From the IMG/VR virus record IMGVR_UViG_3300026119_000001: 20,000 nucleotides of DNA; one strand, given 5' to 3'. The stretch is from an uncultured virus (IMG/VR IMGVR_UViG_3300026119_000001) (taxonomy: Duplodnaviria > Heunggongvirae > Uroviricota > Caudoviricetes). Under the pieces are notes generated by a model. That model made no database searches. It was not told where the DNA came from and was given only the letters and a program-made list of their open reading frames with translations. Positions 5,190 through 14,949 of the stretch are shown here, piece by piece. The stretch's first letter is position 1; each line of letters opens with the position of its first letter. Made by a program: the position numbers and the translations under genes.

Positions 5190-5232
5190 TATTTATACTC
5201 TCTAATATATCATAAACCTAGTATATTGTCAA
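5190..5232 (-). promoter_or_regulatory. tandem sigma70-type and late promoters for gp32
   Basis: TTGACA (5232-5227), 17-nt spacer ending TGa, TATATT (5209-5204); then TATAAATA at 5197-5190. Confidence 0.75.
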
Positions 5233-6051
5233 GCTTGGAATAATCTATGTATTTTAGATTAGAAGTGCTATACCACTCTTCAATCGGTCCACTTACTTTA
5301 TCTCGTCCATCATTATATAGATTAACCTTATAAAACTGTATCTGTGGAAACCTATTAAACATAATCTTCCATTGGTTAATCCAATTGATAGCAGGTGTAG
5401 GACTATTTCCTTCTGCTGTATAATGTTTAGTACTCTTATATAAGTTATTAAGAAATTTATTATGACTATATAAATCGTGTCCTACTAAAAATATTTCATT
5501 AGGTCTCTCTACTTTAGCAGCAACCAAACCAGATGTAGCACCACAAGCCCAACCGTGGTCTTTAGGTTCATCAATATCGTCTAGTGAATGTGAATAATCT
5601 GGCTCTTTAATCCAACTAACTTTAACTGTAGCGTGTTTAACGTTCTTTCTAGTTATATCTCCATCTTTTTTTAATATTGCAACAATACCTTCTAAATTAC
5701 CACCGTGCATAACATATTGCTTTGAATCACCACGTTCATTTGTTATCAATATACCCTTTTTAACTGCCTCTTCAACATCTTCTACAGACAACTATCTGCA
5801 AGTACTTTATCATATGAAAATGCAGGCACAGGTGTCCAACCTCTAAAATAGCAAGGAACCTTTTGTGCATAACCACTATGATATATTTCGTGTATCATTC
5901 CGTGGTCAACGGAAGTTAAACAATCGCATAAATCAGGATGGTCTCTATAAATGGCATTACACCCATACATTTTACCAAATGGTTTATACTTGTATAAATC
6001 TTTATCTTTTCTACTCTCACCATTACCTATACAAAATACTCTATCTGGCAT
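5210..6051 (-). pseudogene. about 280-aa Rossmann-like protein (GNGESR...GCNA...FLVGHD; DUF115/MptE- or GT29-like) split by a 1-nt frameshift near 5790
   Basis: N-half (5782..6051) carries CIGNGESR/YGCNAIYR; C-half (5210..5791) carries GWACGATS, IFLVGHDL and NWINQW but has only a TTG start. One extra T in AGTTGTCT would join the two halves. Confidence 0.6.
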
Positions 6052-6238: not shown

Positions 6239-7669
6239 CTATCCAACTGCTCCCTCCATACTAACCTCTAATAATTTATTAGCCTCTACGGCAAATTCCA
6301 TTGGTAGTTTTTGAAATATCTCTTTACAAAATCCTGTGATGAGTAAGTTTCTAGCATCTTCATCTTTTAATCCTCTTTGCATTACATAAAATAATTGTTC
6401 ATCATCTAGTTTAGATGTAGTTGCTTCGTGCTTACAAGTACTTGATGAATTTTTATTTTCAATATATGGTACAGTATGAGCAGAACAATGACTACCTAAC
6501 ATTAATGAATCGCATTGTGTAAAATTTTTTGAGTTGTGTGCATTTTTCATAATTTTTACCAAACCTCTATATGTATTTTTAGAATGCCCTGCTGATATTC
6601 CTTTTGATATAATAGTTGATTTAGTATTTTTACCTAGGTGGATCATTTTAGTACCTGTATCTGCTTGTTGTCTACCAGTTGTTAATGCAACAGAATAAAA
6701 TTCTCCTACTGAATTATCACCCATTAATAAACAAGATGGATACTTCCAAGTTATAGCAGAACCAGTTTCAAACTGTGTCCAAGTAATTTTAGAATTACGC
6801 CCTTTACATTTTCCACGTTTAGTTACAAAATTATATATACCACCCTTACCTGTAACTGGATCTCCAGGATACCAATTTTGTATTGTTGAATATTTTATTT
6901 CTGCGTCATCTAGTGCTACAAGTTCTACGTTAGCAGCGTGTAGTTGATTCTCATCCCTCATTGGTGCTGTACAACCTTCAAGGTAACTTACATAACTGCC
7001 TTTGTCTGCTATAATTAAAGTTCTTTCAAACTGTCCTGTATTAGCCGCATTGATTCTAAAATATGTACTTAACTCCATTGGACATCTTATTCCTGGTGGT
7101 ACATATACAAATGAACCATCTGTAAATACAGCAGAATTTAAAGCAGCAAACGAATGGTCATTTATAGGTATAACTGAACCCATATATTGTTTTACAAGAT
7201 TAGGATGATTTTGTACTGCTTCTGAAAATGGACAAAATATAATTCCTAATTCTGCTAATTTACTTTTAAATGTAGTTGCAACTGATACAGAATCAAATAC
7301 AGCATCAACTGCCACACCTGCAAGTCCAGCCCTTTCAGCTAATGGTATTCCTAATCTTTCAAAATCCTTTTTAATTTCTGGATCAACATCATCATATGAT
7401 TCAGGACCTGCTTTTGGTGCTGAATAATATGATATTGCTTGATAGTCTATTGGATTAATATCAAGATTTGCCCAATCGGGTTGTTTTAATATTTTCCATC
7501 TACGATATGCTTTTAATCTAAATTCAAGTAACCATTTAGGTTCTTTTTTAATTTTTGAAATCTGCTTTACTGTACTTTCATCAAGGCCTGGTGGTAATGT
7601 TACTGATTCAACATTTGTTGTAAAACCAGCATCATATTTCTTTTTAAGTTTCTCTTGAAGTATGTCCAT
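6239..7669 (-). CDS. sufB: Fe-S cluster assembly scaffold SufB
   Basis: Motifs [103 protein letters not shown] and EGAVG; full length at 476 aa. Confidence 0.97.
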
Positions 7670-8286
7670 TATCCTTTAACAAGTGGAACAAAAGTACACC
7701 CTATTAAATGTTCTTCTTTAACAATTGGTACACCTGCCTTCTCTTCTTTTTTAATAATCTCTACTATCTTGTCACCAACAGGCACAATCATTTTACCACT
7801 ATCTTTTAATTGTTTAAGTAATTCATATGGTACTTTATCTGCCATTGCTGTTACAATAATTCTATCATATGGTGCGTGTTCTTCCCAACCATTGTGACCA
7901 TCAGCTACTTTAAATTTCACGTGTTCATAACCTAATTTTAACAATAATCTTTGTGTTCTTTGTGATAATTTAAAAATTCTTTCTACTGAATATACATCTG
8001 TTGTTAATTCTGCCAACACAGCAGTTTGATAACCTGAACCTGTACCTATCTCTAACACTTTGTCTAAAGGTTTAATACCAAGTTGTTGAGTCATATATGC
8101 AACCATAAAAGGTTGTGATATAGTTTGACCATAACCTATTTCAAGTGGTCTATCTTCATAGGCAAATGCCCCACCCACACAAAACTTATGTCGTGGTACT
8201 TGTCGCATTGCATAGATAGTTCTCTTGTTGATTTTACAACCCTTGTTCATAAGAGTTTTAATCATTTGGTCCATATCTCTTTTCAT
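7669..8286 (-). CDS. pcm: protein-L-isoaspartate O-methyltransferase
   Basis: Motifs [50 protein letters not shown] and FVPLV. Confidence 0.95.
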
Positions 8287-12980: not shown

Positions 12981-13145
12981 TTAATCTCCAAATCCATCTA
13001 TTGCTCTTGGATGAAATGCCTCTTTCTTTTCTTCTTCTTTCAATTCATCCCATAGCTTTTTCTTTTTTTTATATTCTTTTTCTGTCAAACTATGCCACCC
13101 AATACAAAGATTTGTTGGTGACCTACCACATTGACATACCGACAT
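12981..13145 (-). CDS. CDGSH-like small Fe-S/metal-binding protein (54 aa)
   Basis: Manually read MSVCQCGRSPTNLCIGWHSLTEKEYKKKKKLWDELKEEEKKEAFHPRAIDGFGD*; 3Cys-1His motif; TAATG coupling. Confidence 0.65.
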   Translation of the reverse strand: MSVCQCGRSPTNLCIGWHSLTEKEYKKKKKLWDELKEEEKKEAFHPRAIDGFGD

Positions 13146-13300
13146 TATTCTTCATCCTCATCTTCTATCTCTTTTGTTGCAAGTTTAGTTTCCCATTTGT
13201 AAATTATGTTTGTTAAAGATTGAAAATGTGGACTAGCTTGTGCTACTAAACCATCCCTAACTTTTCTTATATCATCTAATAATTCTTTAATATCACTCAT
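13145..13300 (-). CDS. small hypothetical protein (51 aa)
   Basis: MSDIKELLDDIRKVRDGLVAQASPHFQSLTNIIYKWETKLATKEIEDEDEE*; overlaps both neighbours. Confidence 0.65.
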   Translation of the reverse strand: MSDIKELLDDIRKVRDGLVAQASPHFQSLTNIIYKWETKLATKEIEDEDEE

Positions 13301-13515
13301 TGTGGTAATGTTCCTGGTTTACCACCTTTTAATAAGTTTAATTTTTGTGCTTGAAATTGGATTTTTTCTTTGAGTGGTTTAGTAATTAATCGTCCTGCTG
13401 ATTCTACTTCAAAATTATTCTCTTCACAATAAAGTACTATAGCATCTACGTATGACATTCCTTTATGTTTCTTTACAACATCCTCTATAATCAGCGAAAA
13501 TTCTTTTGAGTTCAT
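13297..13515 (-). CDS. gp33: late transcription coactivator (T4 gp33-like)
   Basis: FSLIIE...SYVDAIVLYCEEN...LITKPLKEKI...LNLL signature. Confidence 0.9.
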   Translation of the reverse strand: MNSKEFSLIIEDVVKKHKGMSYVDAIVLYCEENNFEVESAGRLITKPLKEKIQFQAQKLNLLKGGKPGTLPQ

Positions 13516-13521
13516 TACATT

Positions 13522-13550
13522 ACTATAACATATTTATATTAAAATGTAAA
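13522..13550 (-). promoter_or_regulatory. sigma70-type promoter with a nested late promoter
   Basis: TTTACA, 17-nt spacer ending TGt, TATAGT; TATAAATA at 13538-13531 lies inside the spacer; gp33 ATG is 6 nt downstream. Confidence 0.7.
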
Positions 13551-13797
13551 GCGCCTGACTTCTGTTGCCACCTGTCAGGCAAGGCCGTCACCTATTAACT
13601 AGGCAGCAAGAGCAAACTGTTCGTTTGCATTTATGATTTAACAGTACGTTGTCAGCGATTTAACTCCAGATAGGTTTAGTTAGTAGTCGATTCTAGCTCA
13701 CCCCCTTACAGCACATTTTAATGTGTTCTAAATTGGTGGAGGTGGTGGGAATCGCACCCACGTCCTCACTAATTATTAACTATCCTTCAACGTCAAA
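13550..13797 (-). ncRNA. ssrA: circularly permuted two-piece tmRNA
   Basis: Acceptor piece ends GTGGG-TGCGATT-CCCAC-CACCTCC-ACCA at 13734. After a 28-nt intervening segment the coding piece starts GGGGGTGAGCTAGAATCGAC at 13705. The 7-bp acceptor stem has G3.U70. Tag ORF 13628-13599 reads ANEQFALAA*. Outer ends are approximate. Confidence 0.92.
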
Positions 13798-13801
13798 TTC
13801 A

Positions 13802-14218
13802 TTAAATAGATTGTCCACCCAGTGCTTTTACATCAAATGTTAAATCAAATGATTTATATAACATACACGATTCAGCATTATCTAATGTTGACATAACTAC
13901 AATTGATTCTTTATAAGTTGGATCAACATAATAACTCACTACAAAAACTACTGGTCCATCTGGTTTTGCTTTTTCCCTACCAACAGAAACATTTACTAAT
14001 TTAAAATTGAATTTTTTAAGATAAGCGTCAATATCTTTACTAGCACCACATATGACAGGCAGTTGTAACCAATATAATCCAGGACCTTGTTCTGGTGCAG
14101 GTTTATAATCATAAGGAATATTTGGCATAGGATTTGCACCTTCGTGCTCCGCTACAGCAAACGTACTCATTGTTATGAGTATCGCTCCTACTAACGCTCC
14201 TATTATTTTGTCTAACAT
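13802..14218 (-). CDS. hypothetical exported protein
   Basis: Signal-peptide-like N-terminus ending AVA; PVICG...SCML Cys pair; GAAGG upstream. Confidence 0.7.
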   Translation of the reverse strand: MLDKIIGALVGAILITMSTFAVAEHEGANPMPNIPYDYKPAPEQGPGLYWLQLPVICGASKDIDAYLKKFNFKLVNVSVGREKAKPDGPVVFVVSYYVDPTYKESIVVMSTLDNAESCMLYKSFDLTFDVKALGGQSI

Positions 14219-14253
14219 AAGTGACCTTCCGTGGATAAATTGAAGCCACTTTG

Positions 14254-14949
14254 TTAATGTTTTTGCTTGATTTTATCTTTGTTTAGTTCTTCGTAATATT
14301 TATAAAAGTATTTGATACTTTCTTCTAATTTTGGCTCAAAATCTTTTTTATTTTTGATAAAGGATCGCATTGTACCGTCTTCACCTGCCATTAATATGAC
14401 AAGTTGTTCTATGCGTTTGTTAAATAACTCTTCATACATAATTGCATAGGCACAAGTTTGAATAAAGTAGTTTTCTATCCAATCTTCTTTACGTTCCTTG
14501 TTTGCTGTCTTAAAATCTAATACAGATAATTTACCATTGTAGTCAGCAACACAATCTACCTGTCCTGCAATAGTTAATTTGTTACTATACATTATTTCTT
14601 CTGACAGTTGAACATTATCAATTTGGTCTAAATAAGGTTTCATTAATCTAAACAAACCTAACGGTAAAACATCCCTTATCGCTGGTGTTTCACCTTTAAG
14701 ATACTGTTCAACAAGTGTATGAGTTGCTTTGCCTCTACGTGCCGCTCTACCCATTTCCCAATTAGCAGCTTCTTCACCTACTGCCTTACGCCACTTCTCT
14801 AGTCCTTCTTTTTTCTGAACACCAAGTACAGTTGTAATGGATGGATAATTCCTACCATCTATTTGATAGAAACGAAAACCATCTATACGCTTACCTTTGG
14901 TTGTTGGAAGTTTTGTTTTATCTACAGCAACCCAATTAAACTCTTTCAC
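14254..14949 (-). CDS. PD-(D/E)XK exonuclease (T4-like phage exonuclease)
   Basis: YPSITTVL, RGKATH, AGQVDCVA...LDFKT and YFIQTCAYA motifs. Confidence 0.88.
   Translation of the reverse strand: MKEFNWVAVDKTKLPTTKGKRIDGFRFYQIDGRNYPSITTVLGVQKKEGLEKWRKAVGEEAANWEMGRAARRGKATHTLVEQYLKGETPAIRDVLPLGLFRLMKPYLDQIDNVQLSEEIMYSNKLTIAGQVDCVADYNGKLSVLDFKTANKERKEDWIENYFIQTCAYAIMYEELFNKRIEQLVILMAGEDGTMRSFIKNKKDFEPKLEESIKYFYKYYEELNKDKIKQKH

What the first reader, a model, noticed from the sequence alone, without database searches (positions are those of the whole stretch)
13550..13797. Phage-encoded, circularly permuted two-piece tmRNA (tag ANEQFALAA)
Seen in sequence (minus strand): the tRNA-like 3' piece (T-arm GTGGG/CCCAC, encoded CCA at 13734) comes BEFORE the 5' piece (GGGGGTG at 13705), with a short hairpin-containing intervening segment (CACATT/AATGTG) between them. 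The acceptor stem is intact with the alanyl G3.U70 pair. Inter-piece pairings exist (CTATCT/GGATAG, CAACGT/ACGTTG, ACTAA/TTAGT). The resume context ATAAAT-GCA-AAC leads to ANEQFALAA*, a ClpXP-type LAA end, followed by a GCCTGAC/GTCAGGC stem with a competing TTGCC/GGCAA pairing. Established: permuted ssrA occurs in Alphaproteobacteria and a few cyanobacterial and betaproteobacterial lineages. Inference: the phage supplies its own ribosome-rescue RNA in host-style architecture. It sits among core lytic genes with no integrase nearby, so it does not look like an attP remnant. The T-loop (TGCGATT) is non-canonical.
Basis: partly seen in the sequence, partly recalled or inferred. Interest (0 to 1): 0.85.

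Follow-up and report, generated by a model that had tools for sequence, protein, structure and literature searches.

The report
Two-piece tmRNA gene in marine phage
A T4-like marine phage related to those that infect SAR11 bacteria carries an intact, rearranged (two-piece) gene for tmRNA, the RNA that frees stalled ribosomes; it is real and conserved, but the same gene at the same place is already published for cultured relatives.

Summary
Window 13800-13550 (minus strand) is an intact, circularly permuted, alphaproteobacterial-type tmRNA gene: ARAGORN calls it with tag ANEQFALAA*; Rfam RF04321 scores 95.9 bits and RF01849 77.9 bits. The window is from a T4-like marine myophage; the closest isolate found is Pelagibacter phage Mosig. 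The gene sits just upstream of gp33, where Mosig has an annotated SsrA; Melnitz has one in the same block. 75 of 80 IMG/VR gp33 loci carry it, all ending in ALAA-stop, with covarying stems. Four complete relatives lack SmpB and tyrosine integrase. Two details were poorly supported: the third inter-piece helix and the 'competing' 3' pairing; the 3' end is the usual terminal pseudoknot. Two-piece ssrA in this phage group is published (PMC9004378), and the scan met it before on other DNA. Expression, processing and tagging were not shown. One small addition: a conserved T4 late-promoter motif upstream suggests late expression. New member of a known kind; low interest.

The parts
13734..13800 (-). 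Acceptor piece (tRNA-like 3' part; first in the gene). Its 5' end is inferred, just after the stop of the upstream ORF
   Evidence: RF04321 match begins at 13784; conservation among 32 homologs starts at about 13800
13780..13785 (-). Inter-piece helix strand GGATAG, pairs with CTATCT 13673-13668
   Evidence: 94% of cells paired, 2 of 6 pairs with two-sided changes in 32 homologs (helix 1)
13765..13772 (-). Inter-piece helix strand next to the tRNA-like domain (TTAGT-GAG), pairs with 13686-13680
   Evidence: 87.6% paired, 6 of 7 pairs with two-sided changes (helix 2; some reflect imperfect alignment of distant rows)
13745..13761 (-). T-arm: GTGGG / TGCGATT / CCCAC
   Evidence: 100% paired, 3 of 5 pairs with two-sided changes; same stem as 12 of 13 Pelagibacterales loci, whose loop is GGCAGTA
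13734..13744 (-). Acceptor stem 3' strand CACCTCC, discriminator A and encoded CCA; U70 at 13740
13706..13733 (-). 28-nt intervening segment with a short hairpin, predicted to be cut out; holds no ORF here
   Evidence: sequence; weak hairpin, -3.5 kcal/mol, z -0.98; 27-30 nt in most close relatives and up to 122 nt in others
13550..13705 (-). Coding piece (tRNA-like 5' end, tag frame, two pseudoknot regions)
   Evidence: RF01849 match ends at 13550
13699..13705 (-). Acceptor stem 5' strand GGGGGTG; G3 at 13703
   Evidence: a fully pairable partner strand was found in 74 of 74 related loci examined, with position 5/68 as G-C, A-U or C-G
13639..13654 (-).
   Evidence: one position is C-G in 10, U-A in 8 and U-G in 13 of 32 rows; hairpin in the local fold, not more stable than shuffles; assignment is inference
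13599..13634 (-). Resume context ATAAAT and tag frame GCA...TAG, ANEQFALAA*
   Evidence: ARAGORN; ALAA-stop in 75 of 75 related loci; same peptide in a Candidatus Fonsibacter locus L223
13590..13604 (-). Hairpin over the tag stop codon (GCCTA/TAGGT)
   Evidence: about 94% paired, one-sided changes only (helices 7-8)
13553..13585 (-). Terminal H-type pseudoknot: stem 1 GCCT 13585-13582 / AGGT 13573-13570, stem 2 GCCTGAC 13580-13574 / GTCAGGC 13559-13553, conserved GGCAACAGAA loop
   Evidence: stem 1: 2 of 4 pairs, stem 2: 6 of 7 pairs with two-sided changes; loop motif matches RF01849 and is present in 75 of 75 loci
13522..13550 (-). Sigma-70-like promoter (TTTACA-17-TATAGT) for gp33, with an embedded TATAAATA at 13538-13531
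   Evidence: 10 of 12 consensus matches (such matches are no more frequent than in shuffles); a loose form in 77 of 80 related loci
13297..13515 (-). gp33-type late-transcription coactivator gene, downstream neighbour
   Evidence: phrog_254 E 1.4e-22; PF16805; 60.6% to Mosig
13802..14218 (-). 138-aa ORF of unknown function, upstream neighbour; its stop abuts the acceptor piece
   Evidence: no PHROG or Pfam family; an ORF stands at the same place in Mosig
14297..14304 (-). T4 late-promoter motif TATAAATA inside the end of the PD-(D/E)XK nuclease gene (14949-14254); candidate promoter for the ORF-tmRNA transcript
   Evidence: present 494-592 nt upstream of the CCA region in 64 of 68 related loci with enough sequence, also in Mosig; function inferred

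Best explanation
A working, phage-borne two-piece tmRNA of the alphaproteobacterial (SAR11-like) type in a Mosig-related T4-like myophage. Shown by sequence: an intact permuted gene with alanyl identity pair, encoded CCA, inter-piece helices, resume context, ALAA-ending tag and terminal pseudoknot, conserved at one locus across the phage group, with no smpB in complete relatives. Inferred steps: (1) it is transcribed as one precursor, probably by read-through from the T4 late-promoter motif at 14304, since no own sigma-70 promoter is visible; (2) host tRNA-processing enzymes (RNase P at G13705, a 3' trimming activity after CCA 13734) remove the 28-nt spacer and leave two base-paired pieces; (3) host AlaRS charges it through G3.U70; (4) with host SmpB and EF-Tu it enters stalled ribosomes, resumes at GCA 13628 and adds (A)ANEQFALAA, which sends the product to ClpXP/ClpAP. 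The gain to the phage is free ribosomes when host RNA supply fails during infection.
For: ARAGORN and two Rfam families above cut-off. Same locus annotated as SsrA in Mosig and Melnitz, and a permuted tmRNA is also found in HTVC008M. 75 of 80 gp33 loci carry it; 2 misses are truncated contigs and 3 have no tmRNA at all. All 75 end in ALAA-stop, in 7 codon spellings. 46 named pairs: 90.8% of cells paired against 80.3% in shuffles and 38-43% when slid; 143 two-sided changes against 43. SmpB found in 0 of 5 relatives, 4 of them complete. The commonest phage tag, ANESYALAA (27 of 75), is also that of 5 of 13 Pelagibacterales loci. Mechanistic steps follow the two-piece tmRNA pathway as summarised in PMC3985003 (passages).
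Against: No direct evidence of expression, processing or tagging. The host is not known; Melnitz shows that an alpha-type ssrA can sit in a phage of a non-alphaproteobacterial host (PMC9004378). The structure was drawn from the window, and the homologs are related, which inflates the covariation counts. The gene is absent at this site in 3 of 78 related loci with enough sequence, so it is dispensable in some lineages. The late-promoter motif is common in this AT-rich DNA (5 on the minus strand against 3.7 expected) and lies on conserved Tyr-Lys-Tyr codons.
Confidence: 0.8

Rival explanations
1. It is a tmRNA used mainly to redirect or compete with host trans-translation: it titrates host SmpB or tags host nascent proteins for degradation to recycle amino acids, and is not a plain supplement.
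For: PMC9004378 section 8 raises selective degradation of host proteins as an option. A TLD-only phage form and a similar molecule that inhibits tmRNA are described in PMC4131195 and PMC11915505 (passages). The phage encodes no SmpB of its own.
Against: The full tag frame, resume context and pseudoknot are conserved, unlike the TLD-only form. The tag is of host type, in many relatives identical to Pelagibacterales tags. tmRNA has no known way to choose host over phage mRNA (recalled knowledge).
Confidence: 0.08
2. Counter-defence: the phage copy replaces a host tmRNA that is cleaved or disabled by an RNA-targeting defence, or clears ribosomes stalled by host tRNA/mRNA nucleases; its different T-loop helps it escape.
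For: T-loop is TGCGATT or TGCAATT in 59 of 75 phage loci, while 12 of 13 Pelagibacterales loci have GGCAGTA under the same T-stem. Defence systems predicted to touch tmRNA exist (PMC11090510, passages).
Against: No such defence system was tested for in candidate hosts. One bacterial locus of 80 (L272) has the same loop and Melnitz has the host-type loop, so the loop may be plain lineage history. The phage loop is close to the general consensus.
Confidence: 0.08
3. A non-functional relic: an attP-type or recently captured host ssrA fragment.
For: ssrA is a common integration target (PMC9004378 section 8; PMC11915505).
Against: The gene is whole; it is kept with compensatory changes in 75 of 80 loci; it falls in a well-supported set of 17 phage sequences, not among host sequences; PF00589 integrase was found in 0 of 5 related records and none among 30 window proteins scanned against PHROGs.
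Confidence: 0.03

Closest known systems
SsrA of Pelagibacter phage Mosig EXVC030M (MT647606.1, Mosig_00148)
   Same: Permuted form, RF04321 93.6 bits; same order PD-(D/E)XK nuclease - ORF - ssrA - gp33, with thyX, gp59 and gp32 further on; 9-residue tag ending FALAA; same terminal pseudoknot motif; upstream TATAAATA in the nuclease gene. Window gp32 83%, ThyX 70%, gp33 61% identical to Mosig.
   Different: Tag GEDNFALAA, T-arm GAGGG/TGCAACT/CCCTC, longer spacer; too diverged for blastn at E 0.01; extra genes between gp33 and thyX in the window.
Two-piece ssrA of Methylophilales phage Melnitz (MZ577097.1, gene 86; PMC9004378)
   Same: Permuted alpha-type tmRNA between the PD-(D/E)XK nuclease and the late-transcription coactivator.
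   Different: Melnitz has a 142-nt spacer, a 14-residue tag, the host-type T-loop, its own TTGACA-17-TATAAA promoter and a glutamine riboswitch just downstream (52.8 bits). The window has no glutamine riboswitch in 13000-14400 even at E 10.
Permuted tmRNA of Pelagibacterales and other Alphaproteobacteria (Rfam RF01849, RF04321)
   Same: Gene order, acceptor stem and T-stem identical to 12 of 13 Pelagibacterales loci; short 9-residue tags; ANEQFALAA itself occurs in a Candidatus Fonsibacter locus.
   Different: T-loop TGCGATT instead of GGC(A/G)GTA; different helix-2 and pseudoknot-1 sequences; separate branch in the tree; no smpB in the phage.

Membership tests
Permuted two-piece tmRNA (RF04321 / RF01849) | Covariance-model score above the curated cut-off | tested here: met
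   95.9 bits against 47; 77.9 against 50
Permuted two-piece tmRNA (RF04321 / RF01849) | Acceptor piece precedes coding piece, with an intervening segment between CCA and the tRNA-like 5' end | tested here: met
   CCA ends 13734, GGGGGTG starts 13705, 28 nt between; ARAGORN 'Permuted'
Permuted two-piece tmRNA (RF04321 / RF01849) | 7-bp acceptor stem with G3.U70, discriminator A and CCA | tested here: met
   the search motifs fixed G3 and U70, but the 3 loci without the motif had no Rfam tmRNA hit either
Permuted two-piece tmRNA (RF04321 / RF01849) | T-arm and reduced D-loop ending in UCGAC, no anticodon arm | tested here: met
   alignment to RF04321; ARAGORN calls no tRNA here
Permuted two-piece tmRNA (RF04321 / RF01849) | Resume consensus and open tag frame ending in ALAA-stop | tested here: met
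   ANEQFALAA*; ALAA-stop in 75 of 75 relatives
Permuted two-piece tmRNA (RF04321 / RF01849) | Base pairing that holds the two pieces together | tested here: met
   two helices with two-sided changes; a third proposed helix not supported
Permuted two-piece tmRNA (RF04321 / RF01849) | Two pseudoknots flanking the tag | tested here: inconclusive
   terminal pseudoknot covaries in both stems; for pseudoknot 1 only one candidate stem was found
Permuted two-piece tmRNA (RF04321 / RF01849) | Processing into two mature RNAs | tested here: inconclusive
   only assembled contigs of four RNA-type runs were available, at low depth, with no ends or joints to read
Permuted two-piece tmRNA (RF04321 / RF01849) | Alanylation, SmpB binding and protein tagging | not testable with these tools
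   needs biochemistry or genetics
Pelagimyophage / Melnitz-group ssrA locus | ssrA between the PD-(D/E)XK nuclease and gp33 in a T4-like marine myophage | tested here: met
Pelagimyophage / Melnitz-group ssrA locus | Adjacent glutamine riboswitch (Melnitz; optional in the group per PMC9004378) | tested here: not met
   none in window 13000-14400; the same search finds it in Melnitz
attP-type ssrA remnant of a temperate phage | Partial, host-identical ssrA end next to an integrase | tested here: not met
   whole gene, own branch, no PF00589 in 5 related records; serine integrases not searched

The most novel reading that the evidence does not exclude
The phage tmRNA is a late-transcribed counter-measure and not a passive supplement: an old phage-specific lineage of tmRNA with its own T-loop that takes over ribosome rescue when the host's tmRNA or tRNAs are destroyed by an RNA-targeting defence. 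The window would show the minimal form of a module whose excised spacer in relatives doubles as a slot for small protein genes.
Probability: 0.12. Interest if true: 0.6.

Novelty: new member of a known kind. Interest (0 to 1): 0.18.

Why it matters
It confirms that phage-borne two-piece tmRNA is close to a core gene of this marine myophage lineage (75 of 80 nearest gp33 loci) and is under structural selection, so it probably works. The presence of the gene is already in print; what is still open, as far as my searches show, is its function in infection. The conserved late-promoter motif gives a simple test against the published guess of early expression, using the cultured relative Mosig.

Tried and rejected
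RNA evidence: 9 runs were listed, 4 were laid. All were contigs at depth 2-6 over the unique parts. One 151-nt contig (run X4, 1 difference) covers 13546-13696, inside the predicted coding piece; contigs in X1, X2 and X3 run across the spacer, which fits precursor or DNA; neighbouring genes are covered as well. No ends or joints could be read, so this says nothing for or against processing.

blastn of the gene against 50,697 phage records gave only a 40-nt piece in a Bordetella phage; isolates were reached through neighbouring proteins.

Own sigma-70 promoter: TATAAT stands just before the acceptor piece in 45 of 55 loci with the window-type 5' end, but it is the Leu codon and stop of the upstream ORF, there is no -35 box at 17 nt in the 25 distinct loci printed, and the window has TTTAAT. 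Rejected.

Riboswitch or conformational switch at the 3' end: no Rfam riboswitch; the last pair of TTGCC/GGCAA is broken in 16 of 32 rows. Rejected in favour of a pseudoknot.

Third inter-piece helix ACGTTG/CAACGT: 85% of cells can pair, mostly by one-sided G.U changes, but it fails in the 8-row subgroup of L146 and overlaps a local helix. Left open.

Whole-gene folding (z -2.06, 8 of 200 shuffles as good) does not recover the T-arm and was not used as support.

Count of TATAAATA in the window is not above chance.

The window's own genome is not held, so smpB and integrase could be sought only in relatives and in 13-kb or smaller near records (0 of 5). One helix had wrong coordinates and was redone; the T-arm print-out is shifted by one base.

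Full report
Observation. ARAGORN calls one permuted tmRNA with tag ANEQFALAA* and none in 500 shuffles of the 700-nt region. Rfam gives RF04321 at 13784-13599 (95.9 bits, cut-off 47) and RF01849 at 13842-13550 (77.9 bits, cut-off 50), the only two hits in the window at gathering score. The gene is 44% G+C in a 32% window. Order along the strand: acceptor piece (about 13800-13734; T-arm, acceptor 3' strand, ACCA), 28-nt spacer, coding piece (13705 to about 13550; acceptor 5' strand, D-loop, tag, terminal pseudoknot).

Context. Of 30 minus-strand proteins scanned against PHROGs, hits include baseplate hub, tail tube, DNA end protector, gp32, gp59 helicase loader, ThyX, gp33 and a PD-(D/E)XK exonuclease; none is an integrase. 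The best isolate match for gp33, gp32 and ThyX is Pelagibacter phage Mosig (61%, 83%, 70%). Mosig has an annotated SsrA directly upstream of gp33, behind the same nuclease and an ORF; Melnitz has SsrA in the same block; HTVC008M has an unannotated permuted tmRNA there (ANFNEYALAA). A SAR11 host is therefore likely but not shown.

Conservation. A gp33 search of IMG/VR found 527 relatives, of which the best 80 were kept. ARAGORN called a permuted tmRNA in 66 of 80, and the CTCCACCA end lay within 450 nt upstream in 75 of 80. Two misses are contigs cut off within 170 nt of gp33; three (L199-L201) have no tmRNA by motif or by Rfam. Six of the nine ARAGORN misses that hold the motif were checked with Rfam and all six scored above cut-off. 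In 74 of 74 loci with enough flank a fully pairable acceptor 5' strand was found (the motifs used fix G3 and U70, so this shows an intact stem, not an independent test of that pair). All 75 end in ALAA-stop, in 7 codon spellings; tags are ANESYALAA 27, GEGNFALAA 15, ANDNNFALAA 9, ANEQFALAA 7, ANESLALAA 6, DNASYALAA 4, ANNNNFALAA 4, GNENFALAA 2, ANDNSFALAA 1.

Structure. On 32 distinct sequences (window plus 31 of the 46 distinct homologous regions; long-spacer forms and some near-copies left out), 46 named pairs were 90.8% paired against 80.3% in shuffles and 38-43% when slid, with 143 two-sided changes against 43. The structure was read from the window and the rows are related, so these numbers are generous; three rows are misaligned at the acceptor stem. 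T-stem, both inner inter-piece helices and both stems of a terminal pseudoknot (13585-13582/13573-13570 and 13580-13574/13559-13553) show two-sided changes. CAACGT overlaps a local TGACA/TGTTA helix that I take as part of pseudoknot 1 (inference). Two pseudoknots around the tag are the expected layout of a two-piece coding piece (PMC3985003, passages).

Relation to hosts. Among 80 bacterial loci fetched by motif (scan cut at 120), the 13 Pelagibacterales took the top 13 local-alignment scores against the window among those with enough flank. Twelve share the window's T-stem and acceptor stem but have the loop GGCAGTA; phage loops are TGCGATT in 47 and TGCAATT in 12 of 75. One bacterial locus (L272) has TGCGATT, and the RF04321 consensus is UUCGAUU, so the loop is unremarkable as a tmRNA loop. 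ANEQFALAA is also the tag of a Candidatus Fonsibacter locus. In a 51-row tree the window lies in a set of 17 phage rows (99/99) that includes Mosig and HTVC008M; Melnitz is a long branch, the bootstrap had not fully settled, and base composition differs among rows, so the tree shows a phage lineage apart from hosts but not the donor.

Dependence on the host. SmpB (PF01668) was found in 0 of 5 related records, four of them complete, while the control rang in 10 of 14 genomes, and in 0 of 5 near fragments. Tyrosine integrase (PF00589) was found in 0 of 5 (control 14 of 14). The window's own genome is not held.

Transcription. No sigma-70 promoter is seen in front of the gene; the best one in the region (TTTACA-17-TATAGT, 13550-13522) follows it and points at gp33, and no terminator is found on the minus strand. 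A T4 late-promoter motif TATAAATA lies at 14304 inside the nuclease gene; it is present 494-592 nt upstream in 64 of 68 relatives with enough sequence and in Mosig, and in the 17 distinct contexts the following Tyr codon is free (TAT 10, TAC 7). The motif is common in such DNA and sits on conserved codons, so late expression is a suggestion only. PMC9004378 postulated early expression for Melnitz, and its method left out promoters inside ORFs. RNA data were inconclusive.

Mechanism. Most likely the precursor is cut by host tRNA-processing enzymes into two paired pieces, charged with alanine, and used with host SmpB to rescue stalled ribosomes and tag products for ClpXP/ClpAP. The anatomy and its conservation are shown here; expression, processing, charging and tagging are inferred from the known pathway (PMC3985003, passages). 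Rivals are a decoy or host-protein recycling role, a counter-defence role, and a relic; the last is contradicted.

Literature. PMC9004378 (abstract, outline, passages, sections 8 and 24 read; supplements not opened, and its Table S1 of phage tmRNAs may hold closer sequences) reports the two-piece ssrA of Melnitz directly upstream of the coactivator, 53 two-piece forms among 133 unique phage tmRNAs, and permuted tmRNA in 17 of 47 related contigs. PMC11915505 (passages) lists 79 phage tmRNAs and defines RF04321. PMC4131195, PMC2704228 and PMC11090510 were seen as passages. My searches showed no experimental test of a phage two-piece tmRNA in the listings; the library lacks most subscription journals. 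Two earlier notes of this scan reached the same verdict on other genomes; I had the paper and the Mosig locus before looking.

Side result. The window's spacer is short and holds no ORF. In relatives the same stem-closed spacer reaches 97-332 nt. In a scan not selected for start signals, 44 of 53 distinct long spacers (from 80 of 85 loci) hold an ORF of 25 or more codons starting in the first 45 nt, against a mean of 11 in shuffles; 23 have a Shine-Dalgarno-like motif, against 1. Crude pN/pS was 0.20, 0.34 and 0.43 in three ORF families. The scan has noted this on other DNA; two paper searches did not show it. It is not a property of this window and does not raise the score.

Verdict. Observation confirmed, interpretation supported, novelty low: a new member of a published kind. 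Interest 0.18.

Noticed in passing
L195:2172-2293 region, L197, L198, L204 (Melnitz ssrA spacer), L326-L453: In relatives the tmRNA intervening segment is enlarged (97-332 nt) and often holds a small ORF with a Shine-Dalgarno-like motif: 44 of 53 distinct long spacers against 11 in shuffles; several unrelated families; pN/pS 0.2-0.4. Melnitz has an unannotated 54-codon one. The window's 28-nt spacer is the empty form. Already noted by this scan elsewhere.
   Followed up: partly
L205:8121-8462 (Pelagibacter phage HTVC008M, KC465899.1): A permuted tmRNA (tag ANFNEYALAA, RF04321 90.6 bits) that the record does not annotate, two ORFs upstream of gp33.
   Followed up: partly
window 6239-8286 (-): A full-length sufB (476 aa) and a protein-L-isoaspartate methyltransferase gene between gp59 and gp32. 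SufB matched only 22 of 50,697 phage records, best 63.9% in a Microcystis phage; Mosig lacks them at this site.
   Followed up: partly
window 5210-6051 (-): Two overlapping ORFs (89 aa and 193 aa); the second matches phrog_30607 only from profile position 143, so they may be one frameshifted or split gene.
   Followed up: no
L130, L140, L152, L160, L161, L175, L202, L121 (Mosig): The tag starts with Gly or Asp instead of Ala in 21 of 75 related loci and in Mosig; tag type, spacer type and 3' pseudoknot type occur in mixed combinations, which suggests recombination within the gene.
   Followed up: no
L199, L200, L201: Related gp33 loci that keep the gp33 promoter but have no tmRNA upstream, so the gene is lost or elsewhere in some lineages.
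   Followed up: partly
L121:11098-11305 (Mosig): A manA RNA motif (RF01745, 64 bits) upstream of the rubrerythrin gene; none in the window at gathering score.
   Followed up: no
L189 spacer and L205 (HTVC008M) spacer; L137, L171, L190 spacers: Medium-length spacers (47-62 nt) share conserved internal-loop sequences between distant phages, beyond what a simple stem needs.
   Followed up: no
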